Below are positions 8,441 to 53,089 of a stretch of 64,000 bases of DNA, piece by piece. This stretch comes from Alphaproteobacteria bacterium. GTDB lineage: Bacteria > Pseudomonadota > Alphaproteobacteria > UBA828. Both the position numbers and the translations under genes were made by a program. Location: the NCBI GenBank assembly GCA_963422645.2, contig CAXXVO010000017.1:32001-96000 (forward strand), in the 5' to 3' direction. Under the pieces are notes generated by a model. The model had not been told where the DNA came from. It worked only from the letters and a program-made list of their open reading frames with translations, and did not search any database. The number at the start of each line of letters is the position of its first letter. Position 1 is the first letter of the stretch.

Positions 8441-8472
8441 CACGCCTCGGCCGCGCCCTCGGCCCTCGCGCC

Positions 8473-24713: not shown

Positions 24714-25896
24714 GTCACCTAAATCTAAAGTTCGTGGCATAAGTTTTGTTCGACCCGAAGGCAGAAGCGCTTGACGGCAGCGAGGATGTCGTCGGCTGAT
24801 TTGGTCCACCTGAAGGGTCGAGGATTTTCGTTGTGGGTTTCGATGAAAGCGCGGATGTCGGCCTCGAGCTGGAGGGTGGAGCGGTGCACCCCGCGTTGCA
24901 GCTGCTTGCGTGTCAGCTCGGCGAACCAGCGTTCGACCTGGTTGATCCACGACGCCGACGTCGGCGTGAAGTGAACGTGCCAATGCGGACGCCGCGCCAG
25001 CCAGGCCTTGACCCCCGCCGTCTTGTGGGTGGCGTAGTTGTCCATGACGACGTGGATGTCCAGTCCGTCCGGGACATTGCGATCGATCACCTTCAGGAAG
25101 TCGAGGAACTCCCTGGCCCGGTGGCGGCGATAGCACTTGCCTATGACCGAGCCGGTGGCAACGTCGAGGGCGGCGAAGAGCGAGGTCGTGCCGTTGCGCT
25201 TGTAGTCATGGGTGCGCCGCTCAGGGATGCCCGGCAGCATCGGCAGGACCGGCTGTGTACGGTCGAGGGCCTGGATCTGGCTCTTCTCGTCGACGCAGAG
25301 CACCAGCGCGCGATCCGGCGGCGACATGTAGAGGCCTACGATGTCGCGGACCTTCTCCACGAAGTGCGGATAGGCCGACAGCTTGAAGGTCTCGGCCCGA
25401 TGGGGCTGCAGGCCGAAGGCGCCCCAGATGCGCCAGATCGACGTGTGCGACAGCCCCGCCTCCTTCGCCATCGAGCGCAGCGACCAGTGGGTGGCGTCCG
25501 CAGGCGTCGAGGTGAGCGTCCGCTCGATCACTTGCGCCACCTTCTCGTCCGCGATGGTCCGCGGCCGTCCCGGCCGGGGTTCGTCCGACAGACCCTCGAT
25601 GCGGTCCTTGACGAAGCGCCTCCGCCACTTGCCGACGGTGTGTTCGTGCACGCCGATCTCTGCGGCCACCGCCTTGTTGCCAAGCCCGTCCGCGCAAAGC
25701 AGGATCATGCGGCAGCGATCCGACATGGAGCGCGCCACACGGTGGCGGCGAACCTGCGCTTCCAGAAACGACCGCTCCTCACCGCTCAAGACCAGGGCCG
25801 CCAGCGGCCGTCCCGTACCGCGCGCCATCGAGATGACCTCCTCTGTCCGACTCGGAGAGCCACCCTACAATGAACCCTACTTCAGTGCCAGGTGAC
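24714..25896 (-). mobile_element. IS630-family element inserted at CTAG (TA duplicated)
   Basis: cTA-GTCACCT...AGGTGAC-TAg termini. Confidence 0.92.
24725..25828 (-). CDS. IS630 transposase
   Basis: [37 protein letters not shown]. Confidence 0.95.
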
Positions 25897-27089: not shown

Positions 27090-28977
27090 GTAACTGCCCA
27101 GGTTCTTGCTGTGAAAATTCTCTGGGATTCGGCACAACGCTACCCACGCGACGCCCGTGTGCTCCTCTGTGGTCGCCGGGTTTCACAGCTCACGATGCCC
27201 CTCTTGCGGACTGCGACCGGTAAGCTACCCCGATGTGGCCCGAAGTCCGCCCGCGCGACGGGCACCGATTTTCATTCTATGGGGTGGTCCAGCACGGCGT
27301 CGACCATGATCGTTTATGAGAATGGCTCCGCTGTTGGAGAACCCGTGCCAGGTGAGCTTACGCGCACTTGACGGTGGCGATGAGCCGATCCGATGGGCTG
27401 GTCAGGGCTTCGATGATATTCCAGCCCTGCTTTCTGGCGGTGGTGATGACGCTGCGCAGGATGGCGAAGTTCTCGGCCCCCTGCGCGGACCGGAAGCCCC
27501 CGGAGATCTTCTGGCGCAGCTTCATCATCCGAAGGTCGCGCTCGGCCTCGTTGTTCGTGAACCCGACCTCGAGGTCGATCAGGAACCGGAGCACCGCGCA
27601 TTTGTGGTCGCGCAGCCTCAAGGCCAGATTGTGACCGATCCTTCGCTTCCGGCGCTTCTTCCTCTTGCCAGGCGAGAACGGTGGTTGGCTCTCGTGAAAG
27701 GCCAGCGCATCGGCGATGATCTCGTCGTATCGGCGCTCGATCAGCGCCACAAGCCTCGCCGGAACGGCGATATCCTTGTCCAGCGCGATGCGGGCGGCGC
27801 GATTGGCTCGGCGCAGGAGCTGCTGCATCCGCCGGGCCCAAGCCTCCCCTTCGATGTCCACCAGCGCCTGCAACTCCCGCAGGTGATGGGCGTTGCACAG
27901 GCCGTGCTCCACCCCTTCCATCGCGAAGTACGGCTTCCAGTGATCGTGCACGACGATGCCGGAGACACCCGAGAGCAGGGCGCCGCGCTTGCCGCTGACC
28001 CGGTACGCCGCCAGCAGCGGCGTGCAGATCACATGAAGCCACTGCGTCTGACCGCCGATCCGCAAGCCGGTCTCGTCCATGTGTTTCACCCGCGCCGTGC
28101 CCGCCGCCAGGTCCTGTATGTGCAAGGCCGCGTCCCGCAGCCGCTCGGCCGCCCTCTCGCTCATCGTCGCCAACGTCGCAGCCGTCACCGGCGCGCCGAA
28201 GAGCTCGGCCATCACCTGCGACAGCCGATCCTCCGGCAGGAAGTGAGCGTGCTGAAGGTAGACCGCCACCCCGGCAATGCGCGGGCCGTACTGCACCGGC
28301 GCCGACACCCCGTCGGGGAACGCCGCCCGGGTCACCGTCCCGCAATGCCCGCAGCACTTGGCATGCGCCCGGTGCTCGGTCACCTCCAGGGGGCTCGGCT
28401 CGGGCAGATCGAACACCTGGCGGGCGACGGGCGTTCCCGCCCTGGCCGCGTCCGAAAGCGGCGAACCGCATCCCTTGCAGGAAGCCGGGACGTGATCCTT
28501 CACCCGATCCGGGTGATCGGCGCGGCGCAGCGTCTTGCCCTTGTGGCCGGGCTGGCCACCGGGCTTGCGGCCCGATTTGCCGCGCAGGCTTCGGGTTCGC
28601 CGCTTCGAATTCGGCTTCCTCAGCCCATCGCTCGAAGGCGGCTTGCCGCTGTTGCCGCTGTTGAGGCCGAGACGGCGCTCCAACTCCTCGATGCGCTCGA
28701 CGAGACGCGCGACTTGCTCTTCCAGCCGCGCGTTCTGCTGCCGAAGCCAGGCATTTTCCTCCCGAAGCCGGGCGTTCTCCTCCTCCAGGCGGGCGATCTT
28801 CTGCGCGGGCGTTTCGGGCGCTGCTCCCGTCGAAGGGCCGCGCGGCGACTCGGGATTGCTCATGTCGTTGTTGAGTCATTTCCCGAAATTCCCGTCAAGC
28901 CCTTTCCACCAACTCCGAACGAGAAACGCCTCAATCCACTGGCCCAAAATGACAAATCAGACGACCTGGGCAGTTAC
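27090..28977 (-). mobile_element. IS66-family element (single-ORF, ISBst12-like), copy A, no matching duplication
   Basis: GTAACTGCCCAGGT terminal inverted repeats; flanks GATGGGTG and CTTAACAC differ. Confidence 0.92.
27358..28863 (-). CDS. IS66 transposase (TnpC type)
   Basis: Coiled coil, NSGKPPSSD, Zn ribbon, HMDETG, VHDHW, LCNAHHLREL, TNNEAERDLR. Confidence 0.93.
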   Translation of the reverse strand: MSNPESPRGPSTGAAPETPAQKIARLEEENARLREENAWLRQQNARLEEQVARLVERIEELERRLGLNSGNSGKPPSSDGLRKPNSKRRTRSLRGKSGRKPGGQPGHKGKTLRRADHPDRVKDHVPASCKGCGSPLSDAARAGTPVARQVFDLPEPSPLEVTEHRAHAKCCGHCGTVTRAAFPDGVSAPVQYGPRIAGVAVYLQHAHFLPEDRLSQVMAELFGAPVTAATLATMSERAAERLRDAALHIQDLAAGTARVKHMDETGLRIGGQTQWLHVICTPLLAAYRVSGKRGALLSGVSGIVVHDHWKPYFAMEGVEHGLCNAHHLRELQALVDIEGEAWARRMQQLLRRANRAARIALDKDIAVPARLVALIERRYDEIIADALAFHESQPPFSPGKRKKRRKRRIGHNLALRLRDHKCAVLRFLIDLEVGFTNNEAERDLRMMKLRQKISGGFRSAQGAENFAILRSVITTARKQGWNIIEALTSPSDRLIATVKCA

Positions 28978-29011
28978 CTTAACACACCTCACGCATCGGC
29001 GAACGCACATT

Positions 29012-29465
29012 CTAGGTGCGCAAGAGGGCTGCGATGGCTTGCCCGACCCTCTCGGCCGCTTGCTCGATTTCCCGGTCTCCCAAATGCGCGTAGCGCAGCG
29101 TCGTGCGCACGTCGGAATGGCCGAGCAGCCGCGCGACCAGCGGCACTGGCACGCCGTTCATCACCGCGTGACTGGCATGGGTATGGCGCAGATCGTGAAG
29201 GCGAACGTCCTCGATGCCCGCCTCGCGCCGGGCGCAATACCAGAAGGGAAGGTTGCGGTTGCGGGGCCGGTCGGGATCTCTCGGCGAAGGAAAGACGAAG
29301 GGGCTTCCGCCGTTCGGTCGGCGTTGGAGAATGTGCCGGGCCTGGGTATTGAGGGGAACGATCCTTGGCCCGGTCTTGCCGTCGGCAAGGACCATCCTGT
29401 CGCGATCGACTTCCAACCAACGCAGGCGGAGGATCTCGCTCCTGCGGCATCCGGTCAGAAGCAGG
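29012..29465 (-). pseudogene. tyrosine integrase 2, C-terminal part
   Basis: LTGCRRSE, DGKTG, HDLRH, LLGH, LRY; joins in frame with 36423-37113 once the 29466-36422 insert is removed. Confidence 0.88.
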
Positions 29466-29536
29466 TGAGCGCGCGCGGTCTTTCAGCGGGGATCGGGGCC
29501 TGATCCGCTCGGATTTGTTGAGGTTTTGGGGCGGGT

Positions 29537-29580
29537 GCCCCTCGGCGAACTTGCAAGAAGTTCGCCGGGGGGCTTTGTCT
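29537..29580 (+). terminator. terminator-like hairpin inside the transposon left end
   Basis: GCCCCTCGGCGAACTT-gcaag-AAGTTCGCCGGGGGGC followed by TTTGTCT. Confidence 0.6.
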
Positions 29581-29615
29581 CGTGGTGACGGTCACAATCG
29601 CCAGAGACGGCCCCA

Positions 29616-30233
29616 ATGTCGCACAACATTTTCCGCCACTCCATGCTTTGCAACGCCCTGGTCTGGGCCTGGCTGCGCGAGGTCGATGAGGCCGAGGCGG
29701 CGCGCTGCCGCGAGGCGGGCTGCCGACACTGCCCCGGCAAGCTGCACAGCGCGACGTATCCGCGCAAGCCGTACGGTCTGGCAGCCGAGTTGAGGGAAGA
29801 GGGCACGCGGCGGTTCAGCTTCTGCTGCGCGGATTGCCGCCTGCGAGCGACCCCACCATCGGTACGATTCTTCGGGCGCCGCTTTTATCTGGGCGCCCTG
29901 TTCGTTCTGTTGAGTGCACTGGTTCTGAGAGGCGGGGTGCGGTTGCAGACGATCAAGCGGAAGTGGGGGGTCTCGGTCGCCACACTGCGCCGCTGGCGGA
30001 AGTGGTGGCTGGAGGCGTTCCCGGCGACGGAGCCCTGGGGAGCGAAGCGTGGCGAACTGGTGATGCCACCCGAGGAGGTGCCGCTGCTCTTCGTGCTGCG
30101 GCAGATGCGGGGCGGACGCTTCGGTGAGCGTCTGTTCCTGAGCCTGATCTGGTTCAAGCCGTGGACGGGCTATTGCGGGCTCGGCGATGGCTCGGCGCCG
30201 CCCGCAGAAAGTGTTCCTGTCACGCCCGGATAG
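29616..30233 (+). CDS. transposon-associated Cys-rich Zn-ribbon/HTH protein (DUF6431-like)
   Basis: CREAGCRHC...FCCADC, TPPSVRF, HTH-like WGVSVATLRRWRKWW; first gene of the element. Confidence 0.65.
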   Translation: MSHNIFRHSMLCNALVWAWLREVDEAEAARCREAGCRHCPGKLHSATYPRKPYGLAAELREEGTRRFSFCCADCRLRATPPSVRFFGRRFYLGALFVLLSALVLRGGVRLQTIKRKWGVSVATLRRWRKWWLEAFPATEPWGAKRGELVMPPEEVPLLFVLRQMRGGRFGERLFLSLIWFKPWTGYCGLGDGSAPPAESVPVTPG

Positions 30234-30282
30234 GGCGTTCTACATGGGCATCTCTCCGATGCGGCGAGGGAGGGATGCCGGA

Positions 30283-31758
30283 ATGGACAAGGACGACGCA
30301 GGCGCCAGGCGCGAGAAGTGGGCCCGGCTGCGCTTTGCGGTGGTGGGGCCGCTTCTGGCTTCACTGCCGCCTGCAGGCCAGCTGGGGGCCGAGTTCGAGC
30401 GTCTGTCGCAGCGCGACTGGGAGCACCCGTCGGGCAAGGGGCCGGTGCGCTTTGCGGCCTCGACGATCGAGCGCTGGTACTACCGGGCGCGGGCAGAGGA
30501 GCAGGACCCGGTCAAGGCGCTGCGCCGGAAGCCTCGGACCGACGTCGGCCGCGAGCGGTCCATGTCGGCGGGGCTGATCGCGGCGCTGCGCGAGCAGTAC
30601 CGGGTCCATCCCTCGTGGGCGGCGCAGCTCCACTACGAGACCCTCAAGGCTCATGTTGCGACCCATCCCGAGCTCGGCCCGATGCCGTCCTACGCGACGC
30701 TGACGCGGGCGATGCGCAATCGCGGCCTGGTGCGCGAGCGCCCCAGGAAGTGGCACGAGGGTGAGGACAAGCCGGCGGTCGAAGCCCGCGAGGTCCTTAG
30801 CTACGAGGTGTCTCGCAGTCACGCGCTGTGGCACGGGGACTTCCACCACGGCAAGCGCCGCGTGCTGACGGCGTCGGGCGAATGGCAGACGCCCATCCTG
30901 CTCGGCTTCCTCGACGACCACTCCAGGCTTGGCTGCCACCTGCAGTGGTACCTGGAGGAGACCGCCGAGGTCTTCGTCCACGGGCTCTGTCAGGCCTTCA
31001 TGAAGAGGGACTTGCCCAGGTCCCTGCTGACCGACAACGGCGGGCCGATGACGGCGGGCGAGGTCGAGGAGGGCTTGCACCGCCTCGGCATCGTGGGGGC
31101 CACGACACTCGCTTACAGCCCCCATCAAAATGGAAAAATCGAGTCGTTCTGGGGCACGGTCGAGGGCCGCCTGATGGCTCAGCTCGAAGGCGTCGACGCG
31201 CTCACCCTGAAGATGCTCAACGACGCCACCATAGCCTGGCTGGAGCAGGACTACCATCGGCGGGTGCACCGCGAGCTCGGCATGACGCCGCATGAACGCC
31301 TCGCCGGGAGCGTCAAGGCATCGAGGCCCTGCCCCGCCTCGGACGAGCTCAAGGCGGCCTTCCGCATCGCCAGGAAGCGCACGCTCAGGCGCTCGGACGG
31401 CACCGTCTCGGTCGAGGGCATCCGCTACCAGGTGCCACAGCCGTGGCGCCACCTGAGGACGCTCTGGGTCCGCTATGCGCGCTGGGACCTCAGCGGCGTC
31501 GATCTGGTGGAAGGCCGAAGCGGCGAGCGGCTGTGCACGCTGTACCCCCTCGACAAGCGCGGCAACGCCGATGGCGTCCGCCGTCCTGCGAGACCCGGCA
31601 GCGACCATGGCGGCGCCAGCGCGGGCGTCGGCGAACTTCCGCCGCTGCTCAAGGGCGTGCTCGACGCCCAGGCCGCAACAGGCCTGCCGCCGGCCTGGGT
31701 ACCCCATAACAAGACGCCCGGTCCGGGCGAGGACGACGATCAGGGAGATCCGTCATGA
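30283..31758 (+). CDS. DDE integrase/transposase (rve core, Mu-transposase C-terminal type)
   Basis: LWHGDFHH, FLDDHSR, LLTDNG, NGKIESFW, HRELGMTP, DGTVSVEGIRY. Confidence 0.9.
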   Translation: MDKDDAGARREKWARLRFAVVGPLLASLPPAGQLGAEFERLSQRDWEHPSGKGPVRFAASTIERWYYRARAEEQDPVKALRRKPRTDVGRERSMSAGLIAALREQYRVHPSWAAQLHYETLKAHVATHPELGPMPSYATLTRAMRNRGLVRERPRKWHEGEDKPAVEAREVLSYEVSRSHALWHGDFHHGKRRVLTASGEWQTPILLGFLDDHSRLGCHLQWYLEETAEVFVHGLCQAFMKRDLPRSLLTDNGGPMTAGEVEEGLHRLGIVGATTLAYSPHQNGKIESFWGTVEGRLMAQLEGVDALTLKMLNDATIAWLEQDYHRRVHRELGMTPHERLAGSVKASRPCPASDELKAAFRIARKRTLRRSDGTVSVEGIRYQVPQPWRHLRTLWVRYARWDLSGVDLVEGRSGERLCTLYPLDKRGNADGVRRPARPGSDHGGASAGVGELPPLLKGVLDAQAATGLPPAWVPHNKTPGPGEDDDQGDPS

Positions 31759-32588
31759 ACCGCGAGCTGCTCACCTTCTACGGGCTCAAATGGAACCCCT
31801 TCGCCACCGACCTTCCGGTCGACAGCCTCATGGTGAGCCCCGCCGTCGACAGCTTCTGCCTCAGAATCGAGCATCATCTTGTGCGCCAGGGCGGCTTCGC
31901 GTTGATCGCCGGCGAGCCCGGCACCGGAAAGAGCGTGGCGTTGCGCGTGCTCGCCGACCGCCTCGGCCGCTCGGACGGGCTCAGGGTCTGTGCCATCACC
32001 CACCCCTCTTCCAGGCTGTCCGACTTCTACCGCGAGATCGGCGGGATGTTCGGCGTCGACCTGATGTACAACAACCGCTGGGCCAGCTTCAAAAACCTGC
32101 GCGAGCGATGGCTCACCCATGTCGACGACACCCGCATGCGGCCCGTGGTGCTCATCGACGAGGCCCAGGAGCTGCTGCCCTCGGTGATCTCCGAGATCCG
32201 CCTGCTGGCGTCCACCGACTTCGACTCGCGCGCCATCCTCTCGGTCGTCTTCGCCGGCGACAGCCGCCTGATCGACAGGCTCCGCCAGCCCGACTTGCAG
32301 CCCATCGCCTCGCGCCTGCGCCAGCGCCTGGTCATGACCCAGGCAGACGCCGGCGACCTCGCGGCCCTGCTCGACCATCTGGTCGAGCAGGCCGGCAATC
32401 CGGGCCTCATGAGCGCAGAGCTCAAGGACACCCTGGTCACCCACGCCGGCGGCAACCCCAGGGCGCTTACCGTCATGGGCGACATGCTGCTCGCCGCCGG
32501 CGCCGAGAAGAACCGCGAGGTTCTCGACGAGAAGCTCTTCATGGAGATCCTGGGCGAGCCCGCCAAGCCGAAGAGGGCACGGCGGTGA
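31755..32588 (+). CDS. ExeA-type AAA+ ATPase (TnsC/MuB-like role)
   Basis: YGLKWNPF, GEPGTGKS, VLIDEAQ, AGGNPR; ATGA overlap with the transposase. Confidence 0.88.
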   Translation: MNRELLTFYGLKWNPFATDLPVDSLMVSPAVDSFCLRIEHHLVRQGGFALIAGEPGTGKSVALRVLADRLGRSDGLRVCAITHPSSRLSDFYREIGGMFGVDLMYNNRWASFKNLRERWLTHVDDTRMRPVVLIDEAQELLPSVISEIRLLASTDFDSRAILSVVFAGDSRLIDRLRQPDLQPIASRLRQRLVMTQADAGDLAALLDHLVEQAGNPGLMSAELKDTLVTHAGGNPRALTVMGDMLLAAGAEKNREVLDEKLFMEILGEPAKPKRARR

Positions 32589-33583
32589 AGGGCTTCCCGA
32601 CACGGGCGCCGATGCAGCTCGAGGATCGCCCCCGGGCGCAACAGTGGATGGTGGACACGCTGTGGGCCGAGCAGGCCGTGGGCATCGTCGGCGGCGAGCC
32701 CAAGTGCGGCAAATCCCTGCTCGCGCTCGATCTCGCCGTCGCCGTGGCCACCGGCGTCCCATGCCTGCGCCACTACCGCCCCAGCGCAAGCGGCACCGTG
32801 CTGCTCTTCGCCGCCGAGGACGCCGGCCACAGGGTGCGCAAGCGTCTGCAGGGGATCGCCCGCGCCGCCGCCACCCCCTTCGACGAACTCGACATCGCCG
32901 TCATCGACGTGCCCACCCTGCGTCTCGACCAGCGCATCGACCGTCAGCGCCTGCAGGAGACCGTGGAGCGCATCGAACCGCGCCTCCTGATCCTCGATCC
33001 CCTGGTCCGCCTGCACAGCGTCGACGAGAACGCCGTCGCAGAGATCGCCCCCATCCTCGGCTTCCTGCGCGAACTGCAGCGCCGCTTCGAAACCGCCGTC
33101 CTCCTCGTCCACCACGCCCGCAAGAGCGGCGGCACCCGGCCGGGGCAGGCCCTGCGCGGGAGCAGCGAGCTGCACGCTTGGGGTGACTCAAATCTGTACC
33201 TGCGCCGGCGCGACAAGAAGATCGTCATGACGGTCGAGCAGCGCGACGCCCGGGGCCTCAACGACATCGAGCTGGAACTCGTCGACGGCGGACATGGGCC
33301 GGCCTTCCGTCTGCACCAGGACGCGGCAGATGAAGACAGGCACGAGCCCGCCACCGTCGAGCAGCGCGTCTTCAAGGCGATCGAGCAGGCCGAAAAGCCG
33401 CTCTCGAAAGCCCAGATCCGCTCACGCGCCGCTGCCCGCAACGCCACCGTCGTTGCCGCCATCGAGAGCCTCACCAGGGAGGGGCGCATCGAACGGGCGC
33501 CCAGGGGTGGCTATCGCCTCGCAGCCGCCGAGGCGCACCGGGAGCCGCAATCCCCTGCCGCCATCAACGGAAGTGCGGGATGA
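32585..33583 (+). CDS. AAA_25/RepA-like (RecA-fold) helicase-type ATPase with C-terminal winged helix
   Basis: GTG start overlapping the previous stop; GGEPKCGKS, FAAED, LILDPL, DEN, LVHHARK, LRGSSEL. Confidence 0.82.
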   Translation: MKGFPTRAPMQLEDRPRAQQWMVDTLWAEQAVGIVGGEPKCGKSLLALDLAVAVATGVPCLRHYRPSASGTVLLFAAEDAGHRVRKRLQGIARAAATPFDELDIAVIDVPTLRLDQRIDRQRLQETVERIEPRLLILDPLVRLHSVDENAVAEIAPILGFLRELQRRFETAVLLVHHARKSGGTRPGQALRGSSELHAWGDSNLYLRRRDKKIVMTVEQRDARGLNDIELELVDGGHGPAFRLHQDAADEDRHEPATVEQRVFKAIEQAEKPLSKAQIRSRAAARNATVVAAIESLTREGRIERAPRGGYRLAAAEAHREPQSPAAINGSAG

Positions 33584-33644
33584 GGCGTTCCCGTTCCCGT
33601 TCCCGGAACTCTTAAGCGTTGAAGGGTACAGGAACGGGAACGCC
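33584..33644. repeat. inverted repeat built from GTTCCC units (origin-like)
   Basis: GGCGTTCCCGTTCC pairs perfectly with GGAACGGGAACGCC; arms extend to 21 bp with 2 mismatches. Confidence 0.75.
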
Positions 33645-34299
33645 GTCAGCCTCCCTTCCAAGCAGACCTTCGCCGGGACCCGGCAATGAGCGGCGGCGAT
33701 CCCCTGGCCACCTGCCGCAACATCCCCCTCGACCGGGTCGCCGCCGCCCTCGGCTACCGCAGAGACCCGACCGACCGGGCGCGCTTCAAGCGCGGGGGCT
33801 CGGTCATCAGCATCAACGGCGAGAAGTTCTTCGATCACCTGCGCGGCACGGGAGGGGGTGGCGCCATCGACCTCGTCATCCATGCGACGGGATGCCGCTT
33901 CCCGGAAGCCCTCCGCTTCCTCGGAAGCCATGAGGGGCGGAGGGAGATCACCACCATCCCAGCCGCCCCGCGACGCCTGCGGCTGCCAAGGCCCAGTCCC
34001 CGCGCCTGGCCCAGGGTCCGGGACGCCCTCATCCGCCAACGCGCTATCGGCACCGACGTGCTCGAAGCCTGCCACGGCCGAGGCCTCCTCTACGCCGATG
34101 ACAGGATCAACGCCGTCTTCATCTGCCGAAACGCCAGCGGGCACACGACCGGCGCCGAGATCCTCGGCACCGCGCCGCAGCCCGGAACAAAACAGTCATG
34201 GTCCCCGCGGTTCTGAGCCACCCCGTGGCATGAAACAGGAGCGGTTCGGCTGACGTTTTCCTTGCGCTTGCACCCATTTGCCGTGTCAGGATGGGTATT

Positions 34300-34500
34300 G
34301 GCGGAGGTGGGGACGTGTGAGCGTCGTTATATCGGTGACGTAGTTCCCGATGACAAAACTGCTTCCGGCGGCCGGCTCCGCACCCCGTATTGTACCCGGC
34401 CCGTGGCCGTGGACGCGCGGCAAATTGCACCGCACCCGCTCGTCGGATGCGTGTTCTTCCGACCGCTGTCCCCGCCTCCACCGTGGCGATGCCACGGCGT
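34300..34500 (+). ncRNA. candidate IS110 bridge RNA (boundaries approximate)
   Basis: Structured non-coding left end with ACAAAAC (34353-34359) matching the target flank and CGGCAAA (34418-34424) matching the element right end. Confidence 0.55.
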
Positions 34501-34544
34501 GATCGTACGCCGCCGTGGCGAGAGCGCAAATGAGGAGGAAGGCG

Positions 34545-35795
34545 ATGAAGACGGAAGGCTTGCACGTCGTCCGGCCGCGCGCGGCGGGTCTGGACGTGCA
34601 CAAGATGGAGATCACCGCGACGGTTCGCCTCTGTGAGGGCGAGGGTGAGCCGGTGGTGGAGACGCGCTGCTTCGGCACGCTGCCGAGCGGTCTGGAGGAG
34701 ATGGTCGCGTGGCTGACCGGTCACGGCGTCGAGGCTGCGGTGATGGAAGGGACCGGGGTCTACTGGCAGGCGCCCTTCGCGGCCCTGGAGGCGGCCGGGC
34801 TCGAGGCGATCCTGGTGCATGCGCGTCAGGTGAAGCAGTTGAAGGGGCGCAAGACCGACGTGGCGGACAGCGTGTGGCTGGCCTGCGTGTGCCAGTTCGG
34901 GCTCTGCACGCCTTCCCACGTTCCGCCTGAGCCGTTCCGGGAGCTGCGCGCACTGAGCCGCCAGCGCCGCGTCCTGGTCAGGCAGCGCTCCGCCGTGCGC
35001 AACCGCGTGCAGAAGATCATCGACCGCGCCGGTGCGCGCATCGGCGGCATCCTCTCCGACGTCTTCGGCGTCAACGGCCGGAAGATCCTCGACGGCCTGG
35101 CGCAGGGGACGGCGCGCGAGGTCATCCTCGCCTCGCTCACCAGCCACGTTGCGAACAAGCTGGAGGGGCTCGGCGAGGCGCTCACCCTGAGCCTGGGCGA
35201 CAACGACCGCTTCATGCTCAACGACCTGCTGGAGGAGCATGACGCGCTTGAGGCGCGCATCGCGTCCTACACCAGGAAGATCGACGGGCAGATGACACCG
35301 TGGGAGGAGCAGCTCCGTCTGCTGACCACCATCCCCGGCATCGACCGCACCGCCGCCTCGACCATCCTCATCGAGATCGGCCCCGACATCGGCGTGTTCG
35401 CCTCCAAGGAGCACTTCGCCGCCTGGGCCGGGCTCTGCCCCGGCAACAACGAGAGCGGGGGCAAGCGCCGCAACGCACGCACCCGCATGGGCTCCAAGAC
35501 CCTGCGCGCCTGCCTCGTCGAGTGTGCCCACGGCGCGGCCCGAACCAAGGGGTGCCAGTTCGAGGCTCATCACCGCGCCCTCGCCGCCCGGCGCGGCTAC
35601 AAGCGCGCCATCGTCGCCGGCGCTCACAAGATGCTGCGCATCATCTATGTGGTGCTCAAGACCGGCAGGCCCTACTACGACCGCACGGCCGACTACGACG
35701 CTCTGATGGTCAAGCGCAACGCTCCTCGGTGGATCCGCATGCTCCGCCGCTACGGCTACATCGAGCCCGTAGGCGCGGAACTCAAGGCCGCCTGA
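34545..35795 (+). CDS. IS110 DEDD recombinase/transposase
   Basis: AGLDVHK, VMEGTGVYW, RKTDVADS, TIPGID, GLCPGNNESGGK; RBS GAGGAGG. Confidence 0.95.
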   Translation: MKTEGLHVVRPRAAGLDVHKMEITATVRLCEGEGEPVVETRCFGTLPSGLEEMVAWLTGHGVEAAVMEGTGVYWQAPFAALEAAGLEAILVHARQVKQLKGRKTDVADSVWLACVCQFGLCTPSHVPPEPFRELRALSRQRRVLVRQRSAVRNRVQKIIDRAGARIGGILSDVFGVNGRKILDGLAQGTAREVILASLTSHVANKLEGLGEALTLSLGDNDRFMLNDLLEEHDALEARIASYTRKIDGQMTPWEEQLRLLTTIPGIDRTAASTILIEIGPDIGVFASKEHFAAWAGLCPGNNESGGKRRNARTRMGSKTLRACLVECAHGAARTKGCQFEAHHRALAARRGYKRAIVAGAHKMLRIIYVVLKTGRPYYDRTADYDALMVKRNAPRWIRMLRRYGYIEPVGAELKAA

Positions 35796-36422
35796 GCGGC
35801 CCGCATCTCGTCAGCCGGCTACGCGGGACCGCTTCGGACCACATCGGGGAAGTCCACCGCTCGTCTCCGCCGCGCCGACCCTGGCGGTCTCAGCCAACGC
35901 CGTGACCTCGGGGTTGGAGCGTCACCGCGCGTCCCTCGCCAGAATCTGTTTCACGGCAAACGCTTCAGGGGCATGGCCCCGGGATCGCGCAAGGCGCGTG
36001 GCGGCTTCTGGCTCCACTGCGACCGAAACCAGCCCGCCCTCGTCATCCTCACCGAGAGCGCCGTCGACGCCATCTCTGCACGAAGCCTGCGCGTCGAGGG
36101 GACGCGCGAGAACGGCGCCGTCGTCGCCTCAACCGCCGGCATCGCCAGCTCGGTCCCGCCCTGGATCAAGGAGTGGAAGCCACGTCGCATCGTCTGTGCC
36201 TACGACGCAGACAGCGCCGGCGACACTGCCGCCGAGCATCTCGTGCTCAACGATCCAAGGGTGAAAAGGTTGCGCCCACGACACGCCAAGGACTGGAACG
36301 AGATGCTCCTGCGGTCTCGATGAAAGCCAGGCCACTCACCGCTCTCGCAGATCAACCAAGCGCCGCATCACGAACATCAAATAATCCGAAAACCGCACCA
36401 TCAAATGCTGGGCGCACGCTCA

Positions 36423-37113
36423 GCAGGAGCCGGATGATATCGGCCTGCTCTCGCCTGCTGTTGCGGGTCTGCCTGTCCAGGACGTGATGGAGCCGGGATA
36501 TCTCCTCCCGGGACAAGAAGCGTGTGAGCATCCGCCTCGGGTTCCTTTCCACGGCCCACGCCGGGTTGGTTTCGAGGTGGCCGCGGGCGATGGCGAAATT
36601 GATGATCTGCGTGAGAAGATCGAGTGCGTGATTGGCGTTGCCGGGGGCGCTCCGGCTGAACCGATCGAACCATCGCCCGATGTGCGTTGGCGAGATGCGG
36701 TCGAGCGGCTTCGAGCCGAAGGCCGGCAGGAGTTGGCGGTCGAGCACGGATCGCACGCCCTTCCTGGTGGACGGCTTGTAGCCGTCGAGATGAGCCTCCT
36801 TCCACGCACCCTCGACGAAGTCCCGGAAGAGCGGAGCCGCACGCCTGGGTGCTCCGGTCGCTTCCGGTTCGGCCTTGCGCGTATGGCATTCCCGGCGGAC
36901 CTCCGCGACGGTCTTCAGCGACACCGGACCGAGCGAGATCCGCCTCGACCGCCCGCCGGTGTTCTCCAACAGGACATAGCTCCGCCCGCCGGTGGGCCGG
37001 ACCCGAACCCCGAGGCCGACAAATTGATTATCCCAGACCGTAAATTCCTGCTCGCGAGGGCGGAGACGGGCGATGGCACGGTCGGCGAGCCGCATGCGTT
37101 CCCTGCCGGCCAT
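36423..37113 (-). pseudogene. tyrosine integrase 2, N-terminal part (arm-binding domain)
   Basis: VWDNQFVGLGVRVRPTGGRSY, RFLSREEI, ADIIRLLL, then the transposon end. Confidence 0.85.
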
Positions 37114-37384
37114 GATTCGGGCCTCCAGCGCAGCGCCGACGGTCTCGGCGGCGTCCATCACCGTCTTGTCGGCGAGGTGCGTGTACTTGAGCGTGGTTTC
37201 CGGGTTGCGGTGACCGAGCAGCCTGGCGATGGTGAGGACGGTCTCACCTTGCCGCAGGGCGATGCTGGCATGGGTGTGACGGAGATCGTGGAGGCGCACG
37301 CCGTGCAACCCGGCTTCACCGCGGACCTCTTTCCAGAAACCTTCCAACCAGCCCTTGTTCCTCGGCCCTCGCCCGCGCGGCGCC
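37114..37384 (-). pseudogene. tyrosine integrase 1, C-terminal part
   Basis: VRLHDLRHTHAS, LLGHRNPETTLKY; continues 39860-40723. Confidence 0.85.
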
Positions 37385-39859
37385 CAATGGCATTCACTTA
37401 GCGGTTTTCGACTGTTCACTTAAGGAGTCGTGTTCTTGCGCTGTCGGTTGCGTGCGTTTCTGTCGTTCAGGTGTTCAGGCGACGGCCCGCTTTGCGCGTG
37501 CCCACTTGCCGCGGGGTTTGCGCGACCTGCGTTCGCAGGACCGGCCGGCGCGCTCAGCGCTGACGCGCCTGGTTGATGCAGGAGAGGACATGGCTGAGGG
37601 TTTCGGCGACCATCGCCGTATGGCGCAGCAGCAGCGCTTCGAGGTTGCGCGCGACGGTGGCGAGGCCGTTGCTGAAGTTGGCTTTCATCGCCGGCTTGCC
37701 GTCGGCAGGGCGCTCGGCGTCGAGGCTTGCGTTGCTGCGGTTGGTGAAGAGCCGGGTCATGGCGATGAGGTTGAAGTGGGCGAAGAGCTCCTGGCGGACG
37801 CCGCGCTCGGTCTGGCTGTGGAAGGCCTCGACGGCCATGGCCTGTTTCGAGGTCTTGTAGAGTTCCTCGATTCCCCAGCGCGCGTGATAGAGCTCGGCCA
37901 GTTCCGCGACGCTCCAGGCCTTGGGGTCGAGGAGGGTGGTGGCGAGGATGAAGACCGTGCTGCCGATGCGGTAGCGGACCAGTCGCAGGCGCAGCGGGGT
38001 GGCGTCGACGTGCGGCGTCTTGCGGCGCAGCTTTCTCAGGGTGTCCTTTCCGGGAGCGACGGTGATCGGCGCGTCCGTGCGGCCGTCGGCGATGAAGGCG
38101 TCGAGGGCGGCGCCTGCCTTCTTCTTGATCCGGAACACGGGGTGCAGGCCGCGGGCGACATGGGCGTGCAGCATCTCCCAAGAGTAGTAGCCGCGGTCAT
38201 AGACCACGATGTCGTTGGCCGAGAGCGCCTTGAGGTGGGCGAGGGCGGCCCTTCTTTCGTCGCCGTGCGCGACCAGGTCGAAGTCCACCGGGATGTTCGC
38301 GTGCAGCCGGTAGAGGCAACTCAGCAGGCCCTGCGGGTAGTGGGCCGCCTCGGAGGGCGTGCGGTAGCCGGCCTTGAGCAGCGGCCGCGGCAGGTTGAGC
38401 TTGGAGCCGTCGACCGCGAACACGCGGTGGCCCTTCCAGGCCGGGCCGTCGGCGCGCTTGAGGATCTCGGCGTGCAGCGTCTTGAACACCGCCTCGTCGA
38501 CCTTGGCCCGCGCCATGCACATCGCCGAGGCCGAGACCGGCGCCGGCTGCGGCAGTGCGACGCCCAGGACCCGGCACTGCTCCCACAGCCCGGCCAGCGT
38601 CGTGGCGTAGCCCGCGCGGCCGTTCGAGAACGCCAGCCGGAAGATGAAGAGCATGACGAGAAGGGTGTCGAGGACCCGCCGGCGGCTCTGCCACACCCGG
38701 TCGTGATCGGCGGCCACCGCCGCCAGTGCGCCGATCAGGTCCTGCCACAGCGCCACGAAGGGATCGTCCGGCGCCAGCGCTGCCGGCCGTGTCCTGTTCC
38801 CGCGCCGCGCCGGCCGCGGGCCTTCGAGCAGGATCGAGCGGAAGTCCGGCGTCAGCGGGTAGACGTAGACGCTTTTGCGGGTCTTGCCCTTGCCGCCCCC
38901 GGTCTCGCCGAGACAGCGCCAGTTGGCCGCGCGGTAGCAGGCGCCGTCGAAGAGGCTGGGGTCCACGAAGGTCTCCACCAGAACCGGGCGCGCTCCGAAG
39001 CGCGCCTCCCAGTCGCCGGGCAGCTGGCGCAGCGCCATCGACAGCGCTTTCGACGCCAGGTTGTCGACCCGGACCCAGGGAAAGATCAGGAAACGCGTGT
39101 GACCCACGACCAGATCGAGGTGCTTGCGGAAGCCTTCCGCCGGCCACCCGATCCACTCGTCGCGGCAGGGCAGCGTGCGCGACGCCCGGGCAAACAGAAG
39201 GCAGCCCAGAGGCCGCCCGTGGCGGTCCAGGAGAAAATAGCGCAGATGCGCGCCGACCAGACGATGCAGCCCGAGATAGTGGTGGCGCGCGACGAACTCG
39301 TTCCACAGCCCGCCCTCCTCCTTGCCCGCCGCAATCGACAGGCGCAGCGGCATCAGCGCGGCCAGGTCCTCCGCGATCGCCGCGGCCGGCGCCGTCCGCT
39401 CGCTCCGGGCCATCGCCTCCTGCGGCCCCCGCACCTGCGCCTCGTCCCGCGCCGGCAGGGTCAGGATGCCCAGCCGCTCCAACTCCTCCAGCATCCGCAG
39501 GCAGACCGCGACACGGTTCCGCCCGCTCGGCGCGCGCCAGTTCAAATGCTCGCAGATCGTGTGCCCGAGCTCGTTGCGGCTGATCGCCGGAAACAGCGCC
39601 ACCGTCTCCTGGATGTCGGCAATCTGCCGGCGGGTCAGACGTCTGCCGAAAAAGGTCGTCGACTTCAGCGCGGTGATGCGGGGGTCCATGGGCCGGCTCC
39701 ACTGACAGGGGGACAGCCACAGTGTGCCAAAGCACACGCCGCCGGTCAATCCCCCTCGTGCGGGAAACGCCGAGACCGACAATCCACACAAGAAATCAAC
39801 TCGTTACGACACCACCAAAAAAACCCCGGAACAATCTTCGCGCCAAATGAATGCCATTG
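37385..39859 (-). mobile_element. IS4-family element with 10-bp duplication
   Basis: Terminal repeat CAATGGCATTCA; GCGCGGCGCC at 37375-37384 and 39860-39869. Confidence 0.92.
37554..39689 (-). CDS. DUF4338 (DruA-like) domain fused to an IS4-type DDE transposase
   Basis: N-half: HHYLG, RDEWIGW, RFLIFPWV, NLASKAL, LVETFVD, GACYRAANW. C-half: AVDGS, YDRGY, YHARWGIEELYK. Confidence 0.82.
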   Translation of the reverse strand: MDPRITALKSTTFFGRRLTRRQIADIQETVALFPAISRNELGHTICEHLNWRAPSGRNRVAVCLRMLEELERLGILTLPARDEAQVRGPQEAMARSERTAPAAAIAEDLAALMPLRLSIAAGKEEGGLWNEFVARHHYLGLHRLVGAHLRYFLLDRHGRPLGCLLFARASRTLPCRDEWIGWPAEGFRKHLDLVVGHTRFLIFPWVRVDNLASKALSMALRQLPGDWEARFGARPVLVETFVDPSLFDGACYRAANWRCLGETGGGKGKTRKSVYVYPLTPDFRSILLEGPRPARRGNRTRPAALAPDDPFVALWQDLIGALAAVAADHDRVWQSRRRVLDTLLVMLFIFRLAFSNGRAGYATTLAGLWEQCRVLGVALPQPAPVSASAMCMARAKVDEAVFKTLHAEILKRADGPAWKGHRVFAVDGSKLNLPRPLLKAGYRTPSEAAHYPQGLLSCLYRLHANIPVDFDLVAHGDERRAALAHLKALSANDIVVYDRGYYSWEMLHAHVARGLHPVFRIKKKAGAALDAFIADGRTDAPITVAPGKDTLRKLRRKTPHVDATPLRLRLVRYRIGSTVFILATTLLDPKAWSVAELAELYHARWGIEELYKTSKQAMAVEAFHSQTERGVRQELFAHFNLIAMTRLFTNRSNASLDAERPADGKPAMKANFSNGLATVARNLEALLLRHTAMVAETLSHVLSCINQARQR

Positions 39860-41370: not shown

Positions 41371-43314
<1,944 letters not shown>

Positions 43315-43336
43315 CACCTCCGATCTCCTCATGGCC

Positions 43337-43615
43337 CTACTGCTTCGCCGCCTCGACGACGATTCGTCCGCGGCCGCGTCTGAGCAGATAACCGCCCCGC
43401 GGGATCGCAAGCGTGCCCCGCTGCACCAGCGGCCAGAGCGTGTCGACGATCAACGCGGCGTTCGCGTCCGCCTGCGCCGCCGCCGCCGGCTGCGATGCAA
43501 GCCACGCGGCGAACGCCCCTTCGCCGATCTCTTTGCCGACAGACTTGCGCAGCGCGTTGAGCTTGCGGCGCTGCCCCTTGGTGAGTGAGTTCTCGTCGAT
43601 CTGGGTTGGGGACAT
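43337..43615 (-). CDS. small basic hypothetical protein
   Basis: 92 aa ORF directly upstream of and co-oriented with the sigma gene, preceded by GGAGCAGG. Confidence 0.6.
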
Positions 43616-52921: not shown

Positions 52922-53089
52922 TGGTGCCGTCCTGCAAGATTCGGGAGGATTATGCCCTCAATATATTCGATTCCGGTAACTGCCCAGGTCGTCTGATTTG
53001 TCATTTTGGGCCAGTGGATTGAGGCGTTTCTCGTTCGGAGTTGGTGGAAAGGGCTTGACGGGAATTTCGGGAAATGACTCAACAACGAC

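What the first reader, a model, noticed from the sequence alone, without database searches (positions are those of the whole stretch)
29466..36422. DDE transposon encoding its own helicase, primase and origin-like palindrome
Seen: exact ends TGAGCG(C/T)GCGC, a 5-bp GCAGG duplication and an integrase split in frame show that the whole unit moved as one piece. Inside, a Mu/rve transposase, an ExeA-type ATPase and an AAA_25/RepA-like helicase are translationally coupled (ATGA, GTGA). They are followed by a GTTCCC palindrome and a TOPRIM primase-like gene ending 99 bp from the right end. Known: Mu, Tn552 and Tn7-type elements use TG...CA ends, an AAA ATPase partner and host replication proteins. 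Inference: this compact 5.2-kb element may supply its own priming/unwinding for replicative transposition, or replicate as an excised form. I know of no described family with this five-gene layout.
Basis: partly seen in the sequence, partly recalled or inferred. Interest (0 to 1): 0.9.

Follow-up and report, generated by a model that had tools for sequence, protein, structure and literature searches.

The report
Transposon carrying its own helicase-origin module
A 5.2-kb jumping gene, present in over twenty copies in this bacterium, belongs to a known transposon family but also carries a replication-type helicase with its own binding site and a primase, which suggests that it helps to copy its own DNA.

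Summary
Window 29466-36422 is one copy of a 5189-bp transposon (TGAGCG...CGCTCA ends, GCAGG duplication) that splits an integrase gene in frame and is itself broken by an IS110-family element. The genome holds 23 left and 26 right ends, nearly identical, and one public run shows an empty site.

The core (zinc-ribbon/HTH ORF, rve transposase, ExeA/MuB-like ATPase) is Tn6049-family, so the family is not undescribed. What is new is the rest. The AAA_25 RepA-like ATPase is a conserved fourth gene in relatives from about 50 assemblies of many phyla. It co-diverges with the transposase and was also captured by a second, 25%-identical transposase lineage. Its C-terminal winged helix co-varies with hexamer iterons placed in two opposed sets just after its stop codon. 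This is the layout described for SaPI self-loading Rep helicases and their origins.

The fifth gene is a DnaG/T7-type primase by fold and motifs, but it is lineage-specific. Sister elements carry a covarying 135-nt structured element in its place. An IS21-type transposon in the same genus also carries this primase.

Function is inferred, not shown; no circular form was found.

The parts
29461..29465 (.). Left copy of the 5-bp target duplication GCAGG
29466..29476 (+). Left terminal inverted repeat TGAGCGCGCGC. Subterminal ATTTG-type repeats follow.
29616..30233 (+). orf1, 205 aa, Cys-rich (zinc-ribbon-like by eye) plus HTH. Conserved first gene of the family; function unknown.
   Evidence: HTH_23 E 0.0018, below cut-off; colinear homologues
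30187..31758 (+). DDE (rve) transposase, 523 aa, Tn6049 family. The start codon is uncertain.
31755..32588 (+). AAA_22 ExeA/MuB-like ATPase, 277 aa. ATGA overlap with the transposase gene.
32585..33583 (+). AAA_25 RepA/DnaB-like ATPase with C-terminal winged helix, 332 aa from a GTG start. GTGA overlap with the ATPase gene.
33587..33641 (.). Inverted hexamer iterons: GTTCCC x3, a 19-nt spacer, then GGGTAC/AGGAAC/GGGAAC. Proposed binding site and origin for the AAA_25 protein.
33686..34193 (+). 5' part of the DnaG/T7-type primase-like gene (degenerate zinc-binding-like domain plus DUF3991)
34194..35957 (+). IS110-family insertion sequence, a secondary insertion flanked by AAAC. Its transposase ORF is about 34545-35795.
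35958..36323 (+). 3' part of the primase-like gene (Toprim_2). The intact 289-aa form is P0001, read from L003:5721-6587.
36412..36422 (-). Right terminal inverted repeat (TGAGCGTGCGC on the minus strand), preceded by two CATCAAAT subterminal repeats
36423..36427 (.). Right copy of the target duplication GCAGG
36424..37089 (-). N-terminal part of the disrupted tyrosine integrase (the target gene)
29018..29464 (-). C-terminal catalytic part of the same integrase, in the same codon phase

Best explanation
This is an active, multi-copy Tn6049-family DDE transposon. Its core is a zinc-ribbon/HTH ORF, an rve transposase and a MuB/ExeA-like ATPase, with TG...CA-type ends and 4-6-bp duplications.

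Its sublineage carries a built-in replication-initiation module. The AAA_25 protein is a RepA/DnaB-like ATPase. I infer that its C-terminal winged helix binds the two opposed sets of hexamer iterons just downstream of its own gene, so that it loads itself there as a helicase.

In this shallow lineage a DnaG/T7-type primase gene sits next to that site. In sister elements a 135-nt structured element occupies the same slot and may be a priming signal for a host primase.

The module most likely starts DNA synthesis on the element itself. That would either complete replicative (Mu-like, resolvase-less) transposition without the host restart machinery, or amplify an excised copy.

Shown: anatomy, copy number, conservation, co-variation, fold.
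Inferred: DNA binding, unwinding, priming, and any effect on mobility.
For: Mobility:
- 23 left and 26 right ends in the genome, and full copies listed at 100% identity after rounding.
- Run X1 holds a contig that joins the two flanks of one insertion without it. The joint is ambiguous over 4 nt, which matches the ACAT duplication.
- 15 of 15 copies checked in four MAGs have 4-6-bp duplications.

Core family: the transposase is 47.6% identical over 95% of its length to that of Tn6049, with the same gene order.

The helicase is integral to the element:
- 56 of 72 loci found with AAA_25 have transposase, AAA_22 and AAA_25 colinear, and 4 more are cut upstream by contig ends. Hosts include Planctomycetota, Acidobacteriota, Actinomycetota, Myxococcota and Binatia.
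- A 99% SH-aLRT clade of the transposase tree holds all AAA_25 elements, with Tn6049 proper outside it.
- Spearman 0.81 between transposase and AAA_25 identities.
- A second transposase lineage (25% identical) carries an AAA_25 that is 73% identical and nested in the alphaproteobacterial clade.
- Walker A, Walker B, HH and RGSSELHAWGDS motifs are invariant in 31 sequences.
- The protein matches RSF1010 RepA at E 9e-9.

Origin-like site:
- Inverted hexamer arrays follow the gene in 15 of 17 tails.
- The helix motif co-varies with the iteron: RNAT with GGGAAC (7 elements), RPAT with GGTAAC (6), RHKT with GGAACC (5).
- The layout equals that described for SaPI Rep and its ori (passages read in PMC9371898).

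Primase:
- The model has pLDDT 88.
- Every Foldseek match listed at E <= 1e-3 is a DnaG, T7 gp4, Twinkle or T4 gp61 primase (23 shown of 33; further chains of the same entries are omitted from the output).
- E201, D251 and the DWN of the KDWN motif are invariant, and D253 nearly so.
- An IS21-type IstA-IstB transposon carries a 48-51% identical primase, with 11 copies in G005.
Against: - No right-end-to-left-end (circle or tandem) junction appears in four runs' contigs or in any assembly examined.
- The primase is dispensable. Four-gene elements reach at least 36 listed matches in G009. Tn6049 itself has 12 copies without either gene (passages in PMC2864759).
- Two elements inside the AAA_25 clade lack the helicase (L158, L162).
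- The primase lacks zinc ligands and a helicase-binding domain.
- The spacer between the iteron sets is only modestly AT-rich here and is GC-rich in some relatives.
- The co-variation rests on three related groups, which amounts to three observations.
- Iteron binding could serve regulation rather than replication.
Confidence: 0.55

Rival explanations
1. The AAA_25 protein is a transposition accessory factor, not a replication protein. It would bind the internal iteron site as an enhancer, immunity or regulatory element, or help select targets. That role would be comparable to the fourth proteins of Tn7 and Tn5053 systems or to Mu's internal enhancer.
For: - It sits in the operon directly after the MuB-like ATPase with a GTGA overlap.
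- A database protein of 597 aa carries AAA_22 and AAA_25 domains together (P0125).
- The gene persists without any primase in most elements.
- No free replicon form was seen.
Against: - Its nearest solved relative is a replicative helicase (RSF1010 RepA).
- PHROG matches are to the helicase parts of phage primase-helicases.
- The layout of opposed iterons right after the gene is that of self-loading initiators (passages in PMC9371898; abstract of PMC7581432).
- A primase or a structured element sits next to the site in many members.
- A 41%-identical AAA_25 plus winged-helix protein occurs outside any transposon (L139).
Confidence: 0.2
2. Helicase and primase are passenger genes. They would be a captured fragment of a plasmid or island replicon, or a selfish or defence-type cargo, with no role in the element's own movement.
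For: - The primase is sporadic. Its nearest plasmid relatives are domains of MobV relaxases (38% identity).
- AAA_25 with a winged helix occurs outside transposons.
- Tn6049 manages without either gene.
Against: - The helicase is conserved with invariant catalytic motifs across phyla, and it co-diverges with the transposase.
- It was recruited a second time by a distant transposase lineage.
- The primase was recruited independently by an IS21-type transposon that is itself multi-copy.
- There are no credible PADLOC matches.
- The elements are compact, with overlapping genes.
Confidence: 0.15
3. The element is mainly a small integrating plasmid. Its usual state would be an autonomous circle that replicates from the iteron origin, and the DDE machinery would serve only to integrate it.
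For: - It has the initiator-helicase, iterons and primase, which is the content of a minimal replicon.
- Many metagenome contigs have about the element's length (5185-5317 nt).
Against: - No joined-ends form was found in contigs or assemblies.
- All copies examined are chromosomal insertions with duplications.
- Contigs of element length are what assemblers give for any repeat.
- AAA_25 has only 2 weak matches among 72,556 plasmid records.
Confidence: 0.1

Closest known systems
Tn6049 of Cupriavidus metallidurans CH34 (3.5 kb, 12 copies)
   Same: - Homologous transposase (47.6% identity over 95%) and ATPase (50%).
- Same orf1, tnp, ATPase order.
- Short imperfect TG-initiated inverted repeats and 4-bp direct repeats (passages in PMC4739549).
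- Multi-copy (passages in PMC2864759).
   Different: Tn6049 has a 71-aa ORF after the ATPase. It has no AAA_25 gene, no iteron palindrome and no primase. It lies outside the clade of AAA_25-bearing elements in the transposase tree.
Phage Mu, Tn552, Tn5053/Tn402 and Tn7 (rve DDE transposase with an AAA+ partner)
   Same: A Mu-type transposase match (PHROG 310) and a MuB-type ATPase match (PHROG 296). Several subterminal repeats at the ends and mostly 5-bp duplications.
   Different: No resolvase, no TnsA-like nuclease and no TniQ/TnsD-type protein lies inside the element. From recall, those systems rely on host helicase and primase.
SaPI pri-rep-ori module (self-loading Rep helicases)
   Same: An initiator-helicase with a C-terminal winged helix. 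Hexamer iterons lie immediately downstream of its ORF, in two sets pointing in opposite directions around a central spacer, with a primase gene adjacent (passages in PMC9371898; here).
   Different: - The ATPase here is RecA-fold AAA_25 (RepA/DnaB-like) and no sequence relative of SaPI Rep was found.
- The gene order is rep, ori, pri.
- The carrier is a DDE transposon, not a phage-inducible island with a tyrosine integrase.
- Binding and origin activity are untested here.
SCCmec Cch2 helicase with CCPol-MP primase
   Same: A non-conjugative mobile element that encodes a helicase binding a specific site downstream of its gene, together with a primase. It was proposed as a replication module (abstract of PMC7581432).
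   Different: The protein families are unrelated and the carrier uses serine recombinases. No homology was tested or claimed.
RSF1010 RepA helicase, RepB' primase and ssi signals
   Same: RepA is the only solved structure matched by sequence (1g8y, E 9e-9). From recall, the plasmid combines its own helicase and primase with structured single-strand initiation signals. That parallels the primase or the 135-nt structured element seen here.
   Different: RSF1010 has a separate initiator (RepC), and its RepA has no winged-helix iteron-binding domain (recalled). Its primase is of another family.
Casposons and Polintons (self-synthesizing transposons)
   Same: Transposons that carry replication proteins of their own (recalled).
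   Different: Those encode a DNA polymerase and use Cas1 or a retroviral-type integrase. This element has no polymerase.

Membership tests
Tn6049-family transposon | Transposase homologous to that of Tn6049 | tested here: met
   47.6% identity over 95% of the query to the CH34 pMOL30 and pMOL28 copies
Tn6049-family transposon | Gene order: small ORF, transposase, ExeA-like ('gspA') ATPase | tested here: met
   passages in PMC2864759
Tn6049-family transposon | Short imperfect terminal inverted repeats and a 4-bp direct repeat | tested here: met
   An 11-nt inverted repeat with one mismatch. The duplication is 5 bp here and 4-6 bp in relatives. Tn6049 values come from passages in PMC4739549.
Tn6049-family transposon | About 3.5 kb with no further large genes | tested here: not met
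   5189 bp with two extra genes
Mu / Tn552 / Tn5053 / Tn7-type transposon | rve-fold DDE transposase with an AAA+ partner ATPase | tested here: met
   rve E 2.7e-6 (below cut-off), IS481 model E 9e-34, PHROG 310 E 4e-35, AAA_22 E 6e-19, PHROG 296 E 6e-19. The catalytic DDE residues were not mapped.
Mu / Tn552 / Tn5053 / Tn7-type transposon | Resolvase with res site (Tn552, Tn5053) or TnsA nuclease (Tn7) inside the element | tested here: not met
   The five genes carry no such domains
Self-loading initiator helicase with downstream origin (SaPI Rep type, by function) | Helicase-type ATPase with intact catalytic motifs | tested here: met
   AAA_25 E 3e-36 and RepA 1g8y E 9e-9. Walker A, Walker B and arginine motifs are invariant in 31 sequences. 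The superfamily differs from SaPI Rep.
Self-loading initiator helicase with downstream origin (SaPI Rep type, by function) | C-terminal winged-helix DNA-binding domain | tested here: inconclusive
   Homologues carry precomputed GntR, MarR_2 or IclR-HTH hits, and L139 has HTH_27. The window's own protein gives only a weak AbiEi match at residues 289-334 (E 0.0056). No structure was predicted.
Self-loading initiator helicase with downstream origin (SaPI Rep type, by function) | Iterons immediately downstream of the ORF, in two opposed sets around a spacer | tested here: met
   15 of 17 tails
Self-loading initiator helicase with downstream origin (SaPI Rep type, by function) | Cognate specificity between protein and iterons | tested here: met
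   Three helix motifs pair with three iteron types without exception in 18 elements. These form three related groups, so this is co-variation, not binding.
Self-loading initiator helicase with downstream origin (SaPI Rep type, by function) | Origin binding, melting and replication activity | not testable with these tools
   Needs biochemistry or genetics
DnaG / T7 gp4-type primase | Toprim fold with acidic metal-binding motifs | tested here: met
   E201, D251 and D280-W281-N282 of the KDWN motif are invariant, and D253 nearly so. The assignment of these motifs to primases is recalled.
DnaG / T7 gp4-type primase | Whole RNA-polymerase domain fold | tested here: met
   pLDDT 88. The top PDB matches are 2au3, 1nui, 1q57, 1dde, 8gao and Twinkle, and every match listed at E <= 1e-3 is a primase (23 shown of 33). 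TM-scores are only 0.37-0.47.
DnaG / T7 gp4-type primase | Zinc-binding domain with Cys/His ligands | tested here: not met
   The N-terminal domain aligns to the Aquifex zinc-binding region, but no cysteines are conserved; only H51 and H66 are
DnaG / T7 gp4-type primase | Helicase-binding C-terminal domain or fusion to a helicase | tested here: not met
   The protein ends right after the Toprim domain
IS110 family (the secondary insert) | DEDD_Tnp_IS110 plus Transposase_20 domains; multi-copy | tested here: met
   E 1.8e-23 and 4.5e-21; about 49 full-length copies

The most novel reading that the evidence does not exclude
These elements would form an unrecognised class of bacterial DDE transposons that carry their own replication origin and self-loading replicative helicase. 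They are found in about 50 assemblies of many phyla.

Priming would be supplied in interchangeable ways: an element-encoded DnaG-type primase, or a 135-nt structured single-strand signal read by a host primase. Transposition would then be coupled to element-initiated DNA synthesis rather than to host restart proteins.

Repeated capture supports selection for this coupling. The helicase module was taken up by a second transposase lineage, and the primase by an IS21-type element.
Probability: 0.4. Interest if true: 0.9.

Novelty: new variant of a known kind. Interest (0 to 1): 0.8.

Why it matters
From recall, DDE transposons with an AAA+ partner (Mu, Tn7, Tn5053, IS21) are thought to depend on host helicase, primase and restart factors for any DNA synthesis they need.

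A widespread family that keeps its own iteron-binding helicase, and sometimes a primase, would be a natural experiment on how transposition and replication are coupled. It would bridge transposons and small replicons such as SaPI or SCCmec modules. It might also help explain how 4-5-kb elements reach 20-36 copies per genome.

The system is small (4.4-5.2 kb) and its parts are cleanly separable, so the question is directly testable in a laboratory host.

The 135-nt covarying element has no Rfam match. It is a candidate new structured RNA or single-strand DNA signal.

Tried and rejected
Composition: the profile shows no contrast between element and flanks.

Defence reading: PADLOC gave only weak partial matches (mad8 Walker region, AbiEi, RTasDnaG-like), so I dropped it.

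Rfam: no match at E <= 1 in four four-gene loci.

Primase by sequence: no PDB match at E <= 1. Only the fold search was informative.

Circle or tandem junctions:
- A loose regular expression over all loci from L081 onward and over the genome gave only chance matches.
- The laid contigs gave two joints: the empty site, and a weak 597-nt skip in X16 with a 20-nt side.
- Contigs drop rare forms, so this is not evidence of absence.

Depth: element unitigs are deeper than flank unitigs. The tool states that this is no copy number, so I draw nothing from it.

Habitat: two sponge-metagenome runs hold 0.50 and 0.32 of the sampled words. The smaller shares are ignored.

Complex prediction of AAA_25 with the primase returned 'no answer' (score 0.00). 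It counts neither for nor against binding.

Transposase-first census:
- The metagenome scan returned only 8 loci.
- The phylum sample found 2 of 400 other genomes.
- The share of transposase relatives that carry the helicase therefore rests on small samples plus the plasmid collection (173 records with the transposase, 2 weak AAA_25 records).

Tree labels: L131, L135 and L137 were labelled 'no AAA_25' only because my filters (at least 70% coverage, no stop in the match) dropped them. In one search L131 and L137 show an AAA_25 cut by the contig end, and L135 a full-length match (query 9-336). L105 and several other elements fell out of the trees through the same filters.

Standalone structured element: I first thought the copy at G000:C12 belonged to an IS4-like element. 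Other copies of that IS end about 165 nt before it, so it does not.

Unmatched duplications in G000: half the copies lack matching duplications. This could reflect recombination between copies or intramolecular transposition, and I could not separate the two.

Literature:
- Full-text searches for Tn6049; transposon / DDE transposase / AAA_25; IS481 / ExeA / transposon / helicase; DUF3991 / transposon / primase; and transposon-encoded helicase or primase phrases found no description of this layout.
- Subscription journals are not covered.
- Supplements were closed and might list such elements.
- The 2009 description of Tn6049, cited in PMC2864759, was not seen.

Full report
**What is at the coordinates**

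The element runs from 29466 to 36422. It starts with TGAGCGCGCGC and ends with GCGCACGCTCA, and GCAGG lies on both sides.

On the minus strand the right flank (36424-37089) encodes the arm-binding, SAM-like and central domains of a tyrosine integrase. The left flank (29018-29464) encodes its catalytic domain from profile position 32 onward. The last full codon on the right falls in the duplicated GCAGG and corresponds to the first codon on the left, so the gene was split in phase.

Inside, five genes lie on the plus strand:
- orf1 (29616-30233): Cys-rich plus a weak HTH match.
- An rve transposase (30187-31758).
- An AAA_22 ATPase (31755-32588, ATGA overlap).
- An AAA_25 ATPase (32585-33583, GTGA overlap).
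- A DUF3991/Toprim_2 gene (33686 onward, stop at 36321-36323, 99 bp from the end).

The last gene is interrupted by a 1764-bp IS110-family element (34194-35957) that is flanked by AAAC. The palindrome after the AAA_25 stop is GTTCCC x3 (33587-33604), a 19-nt spacer, then GGGTAC/AGGAAC/GGGAAC (33624-33641).

**It is an active multi-copy transposon**

- The window's genome (5.9 Mb, 23 contigs) holds 67 BLAST matches to the element's left 4.7 kb, including at least 10 full-length copies listed at 100% identity after rounding.
- It holds 23 exact 40-nt left ends and 26 right ends.
- An uninterrupted copy is 5189 bp and gives an intact 289-aa primase-like protein.
- I paired 10 sets of ends by eye. 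Three have 5-bp direct repeats, two have 4-bp repeats and five have none. The last group points to rearrangement between copies.
- Contigs of one public run (X1) join the two flanks of the C8:135589 insertion without the 5193 bases between them, with 4 ambiguous letters. Two other runs (X16, X19) span the occupied junction. This is an insertion polymorphism.

**The core is a described family**

- The transposase is 47.6% identical over 95% of its length to genes on C. metallidurans CH34 plasmids.
- There the gene order is a small 'transposase' ORF, an 'IS481 family transposase', an 'AAA family ATPase' and a 71-aa ORF.
- This is Tn6049: 3.5 kb, 12 copies, with a 'gspA' ATPase (passages in PMC2864759). 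It has 12-bp imperfect TG-initiated repeats and a 4-bp direct repeat (passages in PMC4739549).
- NCBIfam places the transposase nearest IS481, below the cut-off.
- PHROGs match Mu-type transposase and MuB-type protein families.
- No resolvase or TnsA-like domain lies in the element.

**The helicase is an old, integral part of a large sublineage**

In congeneric genomes, close relatives of the transposase are multi-copy:

| Genome | Transposase identity | Element length | Genes | Copies or matches listed |
|---|---|---|---|---|
| G008 | 89% | 5185 bp | five | 12 |
| G008 | 70% | 4429 bp | four | 4 |
| G009 | 75% | 4421 bp | four | at least 36 |
| G005 | 75% | about 4430 bp | four | 12 |

All of them carry AAA_25. 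Only the first also has the primase.

A scan of one genome per species with AAA_25 gave 72 loci from about 50 assemblies:
- 56 have transposase, AAA_22 and AAA_25 colinear.
- 4 more are cut upstream by contig ends.
- 12 have AAA_25 without the transposon genes; several of these are partial matches.

Hosts on long contigs include Planctomycetota, Terriglobia, a delta-proteobacterial MAG and Binatia. Bin assignments of short repeat contigs are unreliable.

At this distance the transposase is 44-54% identical and AAA_25 is 46-57% identical.

In a quick maximum-likelihood tree rooted on the second lineage, the Tn6049 group lies outside a clade (SH-aLRT 99) that holds every AAA_25-bearing element. 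Two members of that clade lack the gene (L158, L162).

Transposase and AAA_25 identities correlate (Spearman 0.81 over 351 pairs of 27 elements). The pairs are not independent.

A second transposase/ATPase lineage ('B') is 25% identical in its transposase and has TGTTGTT ends. Its AAA_25 is 73% identical to the alphaproteobacterial ones and nests among them (SH-aLRT 100). One B element (G011, 3304 bp) has no AAA_25. The module was therefore transferred between transposon lineages.

Transposase-first samples are small:
- Of 8 metagenome loci, 4 are five-gene, 1 is four-gene, 1 is three-gene and 2 are distant.
- Of 400 other Pseudomonadota genomes, 2 have the transposase, and both are three-gene.
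- Among plasmids, 173 records hold a transposase match and only 2 hold weak AAA_25 matches.

**The helicase and its site look like a self-loading initiator with its origin**

- AAA_25 matches RSF1010 RepA (1g8y, E 9e-9) and the helicase parts of phage primase-helicases.
- In 31 sequences across phyla the Walker A (GGEPKxxKS), the AAED and LDP motifs, HH..K and RGSSELHAWGDS are invariant.
- Homologues carry precomputed winged-helix hits at the C terminus.
- In 15 of 17 tails read, two opposed arrays of TTCCC-type hexamers lie in the short tail after the AAA_25 stop codon, mostly directly after it.
- The putative recognition-helix motif co-varies with the hexamer: RNAT with GGGAAC (7 elements), RPAT with GGTAAC (6) and RHKT with GGAACC (5), without exception. 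These are three groups of relatives, so they amount to three observations.
- SaPI Rep proteins are described as initiator-helicases. Their C-terminal winged helix recognises penta- or hexanucleotide iterons that lie immediately downstream of rep, half on each side of a central region and pointing in opposite directions (passages in PMC9371898).
- SCCmec Cch2 likewise binds a site downstream of its gene (abstract of PMC7581432).
- The resemblance is one of layout. No sequence relationship to those proteins was found.
- A 41%-identical AAA_25 plus winged-helix protein sits outside any transposon, next to an Xre-type regulator (L139). This hints at where the module came from.

**The primase is real but optional**

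- The model built on 26 sequences has mean pLDDT 88.
- Every Foldseek match listed at E <= 1e-3 is a DnaG-type primase: Aquifex DnaG with its zinc-binding domain, T7 gp4, Twinkle, E. coli and other DnaG cores, and T4 gp61. The output shows 23 of the 33 and omits further chains of the same entries. JetD, RecR and gyrase come only at E > 0.01. TM-scores are modest, 0.37-0.47.
- E201 (ESAxDA), D251 (YDAD) and the DWN of KDWN(E/D) are invariant, and D253 is nearly so. The N-terminal domain has no conserved cysteines, and no helicase-binding domain follows.
- The nearest plasmid relatives (38% identity) lie within MobV relaxase genes.
- In the trees the primase-bearing elements form a shallow alphaproteobacterial group, with motif-bearing elements nested among them. 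A 47%-identical primase occurs in another alphaproteobacterial element of 4925 bp.
- In the same genome an IS21-type element (IstA, IstB, clear inverted repeats) carries a primase that is 48-51% identical, depending on the search, as its third gene. The same architecture has 11 copies in G005 and at least 5 in G011.
- Two unrelated DDE-plus-ATPase transposon families have thus taken up this primase.

**A structured element occupies the primase's slot in sister elements**

- Four-gene A elements and B elements have a segment of about 135 nt between the iterons and the right end. It is 84-88% identical among them, which is more conserved than their proteins.
- RNAalifold predicts 46 pairs.
- On the trimmed alignment 96.9% of cells pair, against 23-48% when the partners are slid. 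Thirteen pairs show changes on both sides, against 4.1 +/- 1.4 in shuffles (0 of 500 reach the observed value).
- By my count from that table, 27 G-U cells lie on the gene-sense strand.
- Rfam has no match.
- With BLAST the element was found in 13 of 20 genomes of the genus and in 0 of 28 other genomes of the order.
- The covariance model found it, by my count, with 12 plus-strand hits at E <= 2.3e-5 in 64 sources. It found none in the 9 primase-bearing sources searched, the window included.
- No element has both the primase and this motif.
- Lone copies also exist.
- Elements of other phyla have other tails.
- That it is a priming signal is my conjecture.

**How it most likely works**

Shown:
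- A compact operon with overlapping genes.
- Ends with repeated subterminal motifs.
- Duplications of 4-6 bp, present in 15 of 15 copies in four MAGs.
- A conserved helicase-type ATPase with a cognate repeat array.
- A primase fold.

Inferred:
- The transposase and the MuB-like ATPase carry out Mu-type strand transfer.
- With no resolvase or 5'-end nuclease, the intermediate needs DNA synthesis.
- The AAA_25 protein loads at the iterons and unwinds.
- Primers come from the element's primase, or from a host primase on the structured element.
- The element is thereby copied, either during transposition or as an excised form.

I found no joined-ends form. The complex prediction gave no verdict.

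**Context and tools**

- The window is crowded with insertion sequences and also holds rpoD.
- No resistance or virulence genes were noticed near the element.

**Verdict**

The element is a Tn6049-family member with a conserved, apparently undescribed helicase-origin module and an optional primase. I rate it a new variant of a known kind, of high interest, with function still to be tested.

Noticed in passing
L024:5804-5968, L036:6018-6153 and 13 further loci (alignments A1, A2); lone copy at G000:C12:125796-125905 (L061:1492-1629): A structured element of about 135 nt. It has 46 predicted pairs, 13 of them with compensatory changes, and no Rfam match. It sits between the iterons and the right end of four-gene elements and is never found together with the primase gene. 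It may be an RNA or a single-strand DNA signal.
   Followed up: partly
G000:C22:63773-67880 (L049 about 5773-9880); also G005 (11 copies) and G011 (at least 5): An IS21-type transposon (IstA, IstB, clear terminal inverted repeats) that carries a DUF3991-Toprim primase gene as its third gene. It is multi-copy in two congeneric genomes.
   Followed up: partly
G000:C11:48117-56956; also C16:27181-32482, C10:44758-50061, C8:169706-173239, C5:476526-480061: Head-to-tail tandem arrays of the IS110-family element, up to 5 copies, spaced 1768-1769 bp apart (the 1764-bp element plus a 4-5-bp core). There are about 49 copies genome-wide.
   Followed up: no
window 34194-35957; G000:C11:81263-82969; G000:C13:130153-131859: The same IS110 insertion, at the same position in the primase gene, occurs in three copies or fragments of the transposon. 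Either the broken element was copied, or the IS110 hit the same site repeatedly.
   Followed up: no
window 16526-18767, 20974-23215, 50069-52310; 27358-28863 and 53090-54595; 24725-25828; 37554-39791: The window is crowded with other insertion sequences. There are three ORF pairs of identical lengths (242 and 508 aa) of which the one scanned is IS21-type IstB/IstA, two 501-aa ORFs of which the one scanned is an IS66 transposase, an IS630-like gene, and a 745-aa protein that joins a DruA domain to a DDE_Tnp_1 transposase. rpoD lies at 41371-43410.
   Followed up: partly
window 28873-28978 and 52975-53080; more than 100 places in G000: A repeat of about 105 nt with over 100 near-identical copies in the genome. 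In the window it lies beside both IS66-type genes.
   Followed up: no
window 37168-37356, minus strand: The C-terminal piece of a second tyrosine integrase lies directly upstream of the disrupted integrase, in the same open frame. This suggests tandem or rearranged integrase genes.
   Followed up: no
L003:1496/6690 (G000:C8:135589-140777) in run X1: An empty-site contig for one insertion in a 2015 run labelled with the same organism code. Runs of 2023 span the occupied junction, so this is an insertion polymorphism.
   Followed up: partly
protein P0125 (597 aa): A database protein with AAA_22 and AAA_25 domains in one chain, 69% identical to the helicase. It could be a true fusion or a read-through of the overlapping genes.
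   Followed up: no
G009 and G005 transposase matches: All copies of the 75%-identical transposase show one in-frame TGA within the match to residues 2-523. It probably marks the orf1/transposase overlap, but a programmed recoding event was not excluded.
   Followed up: no
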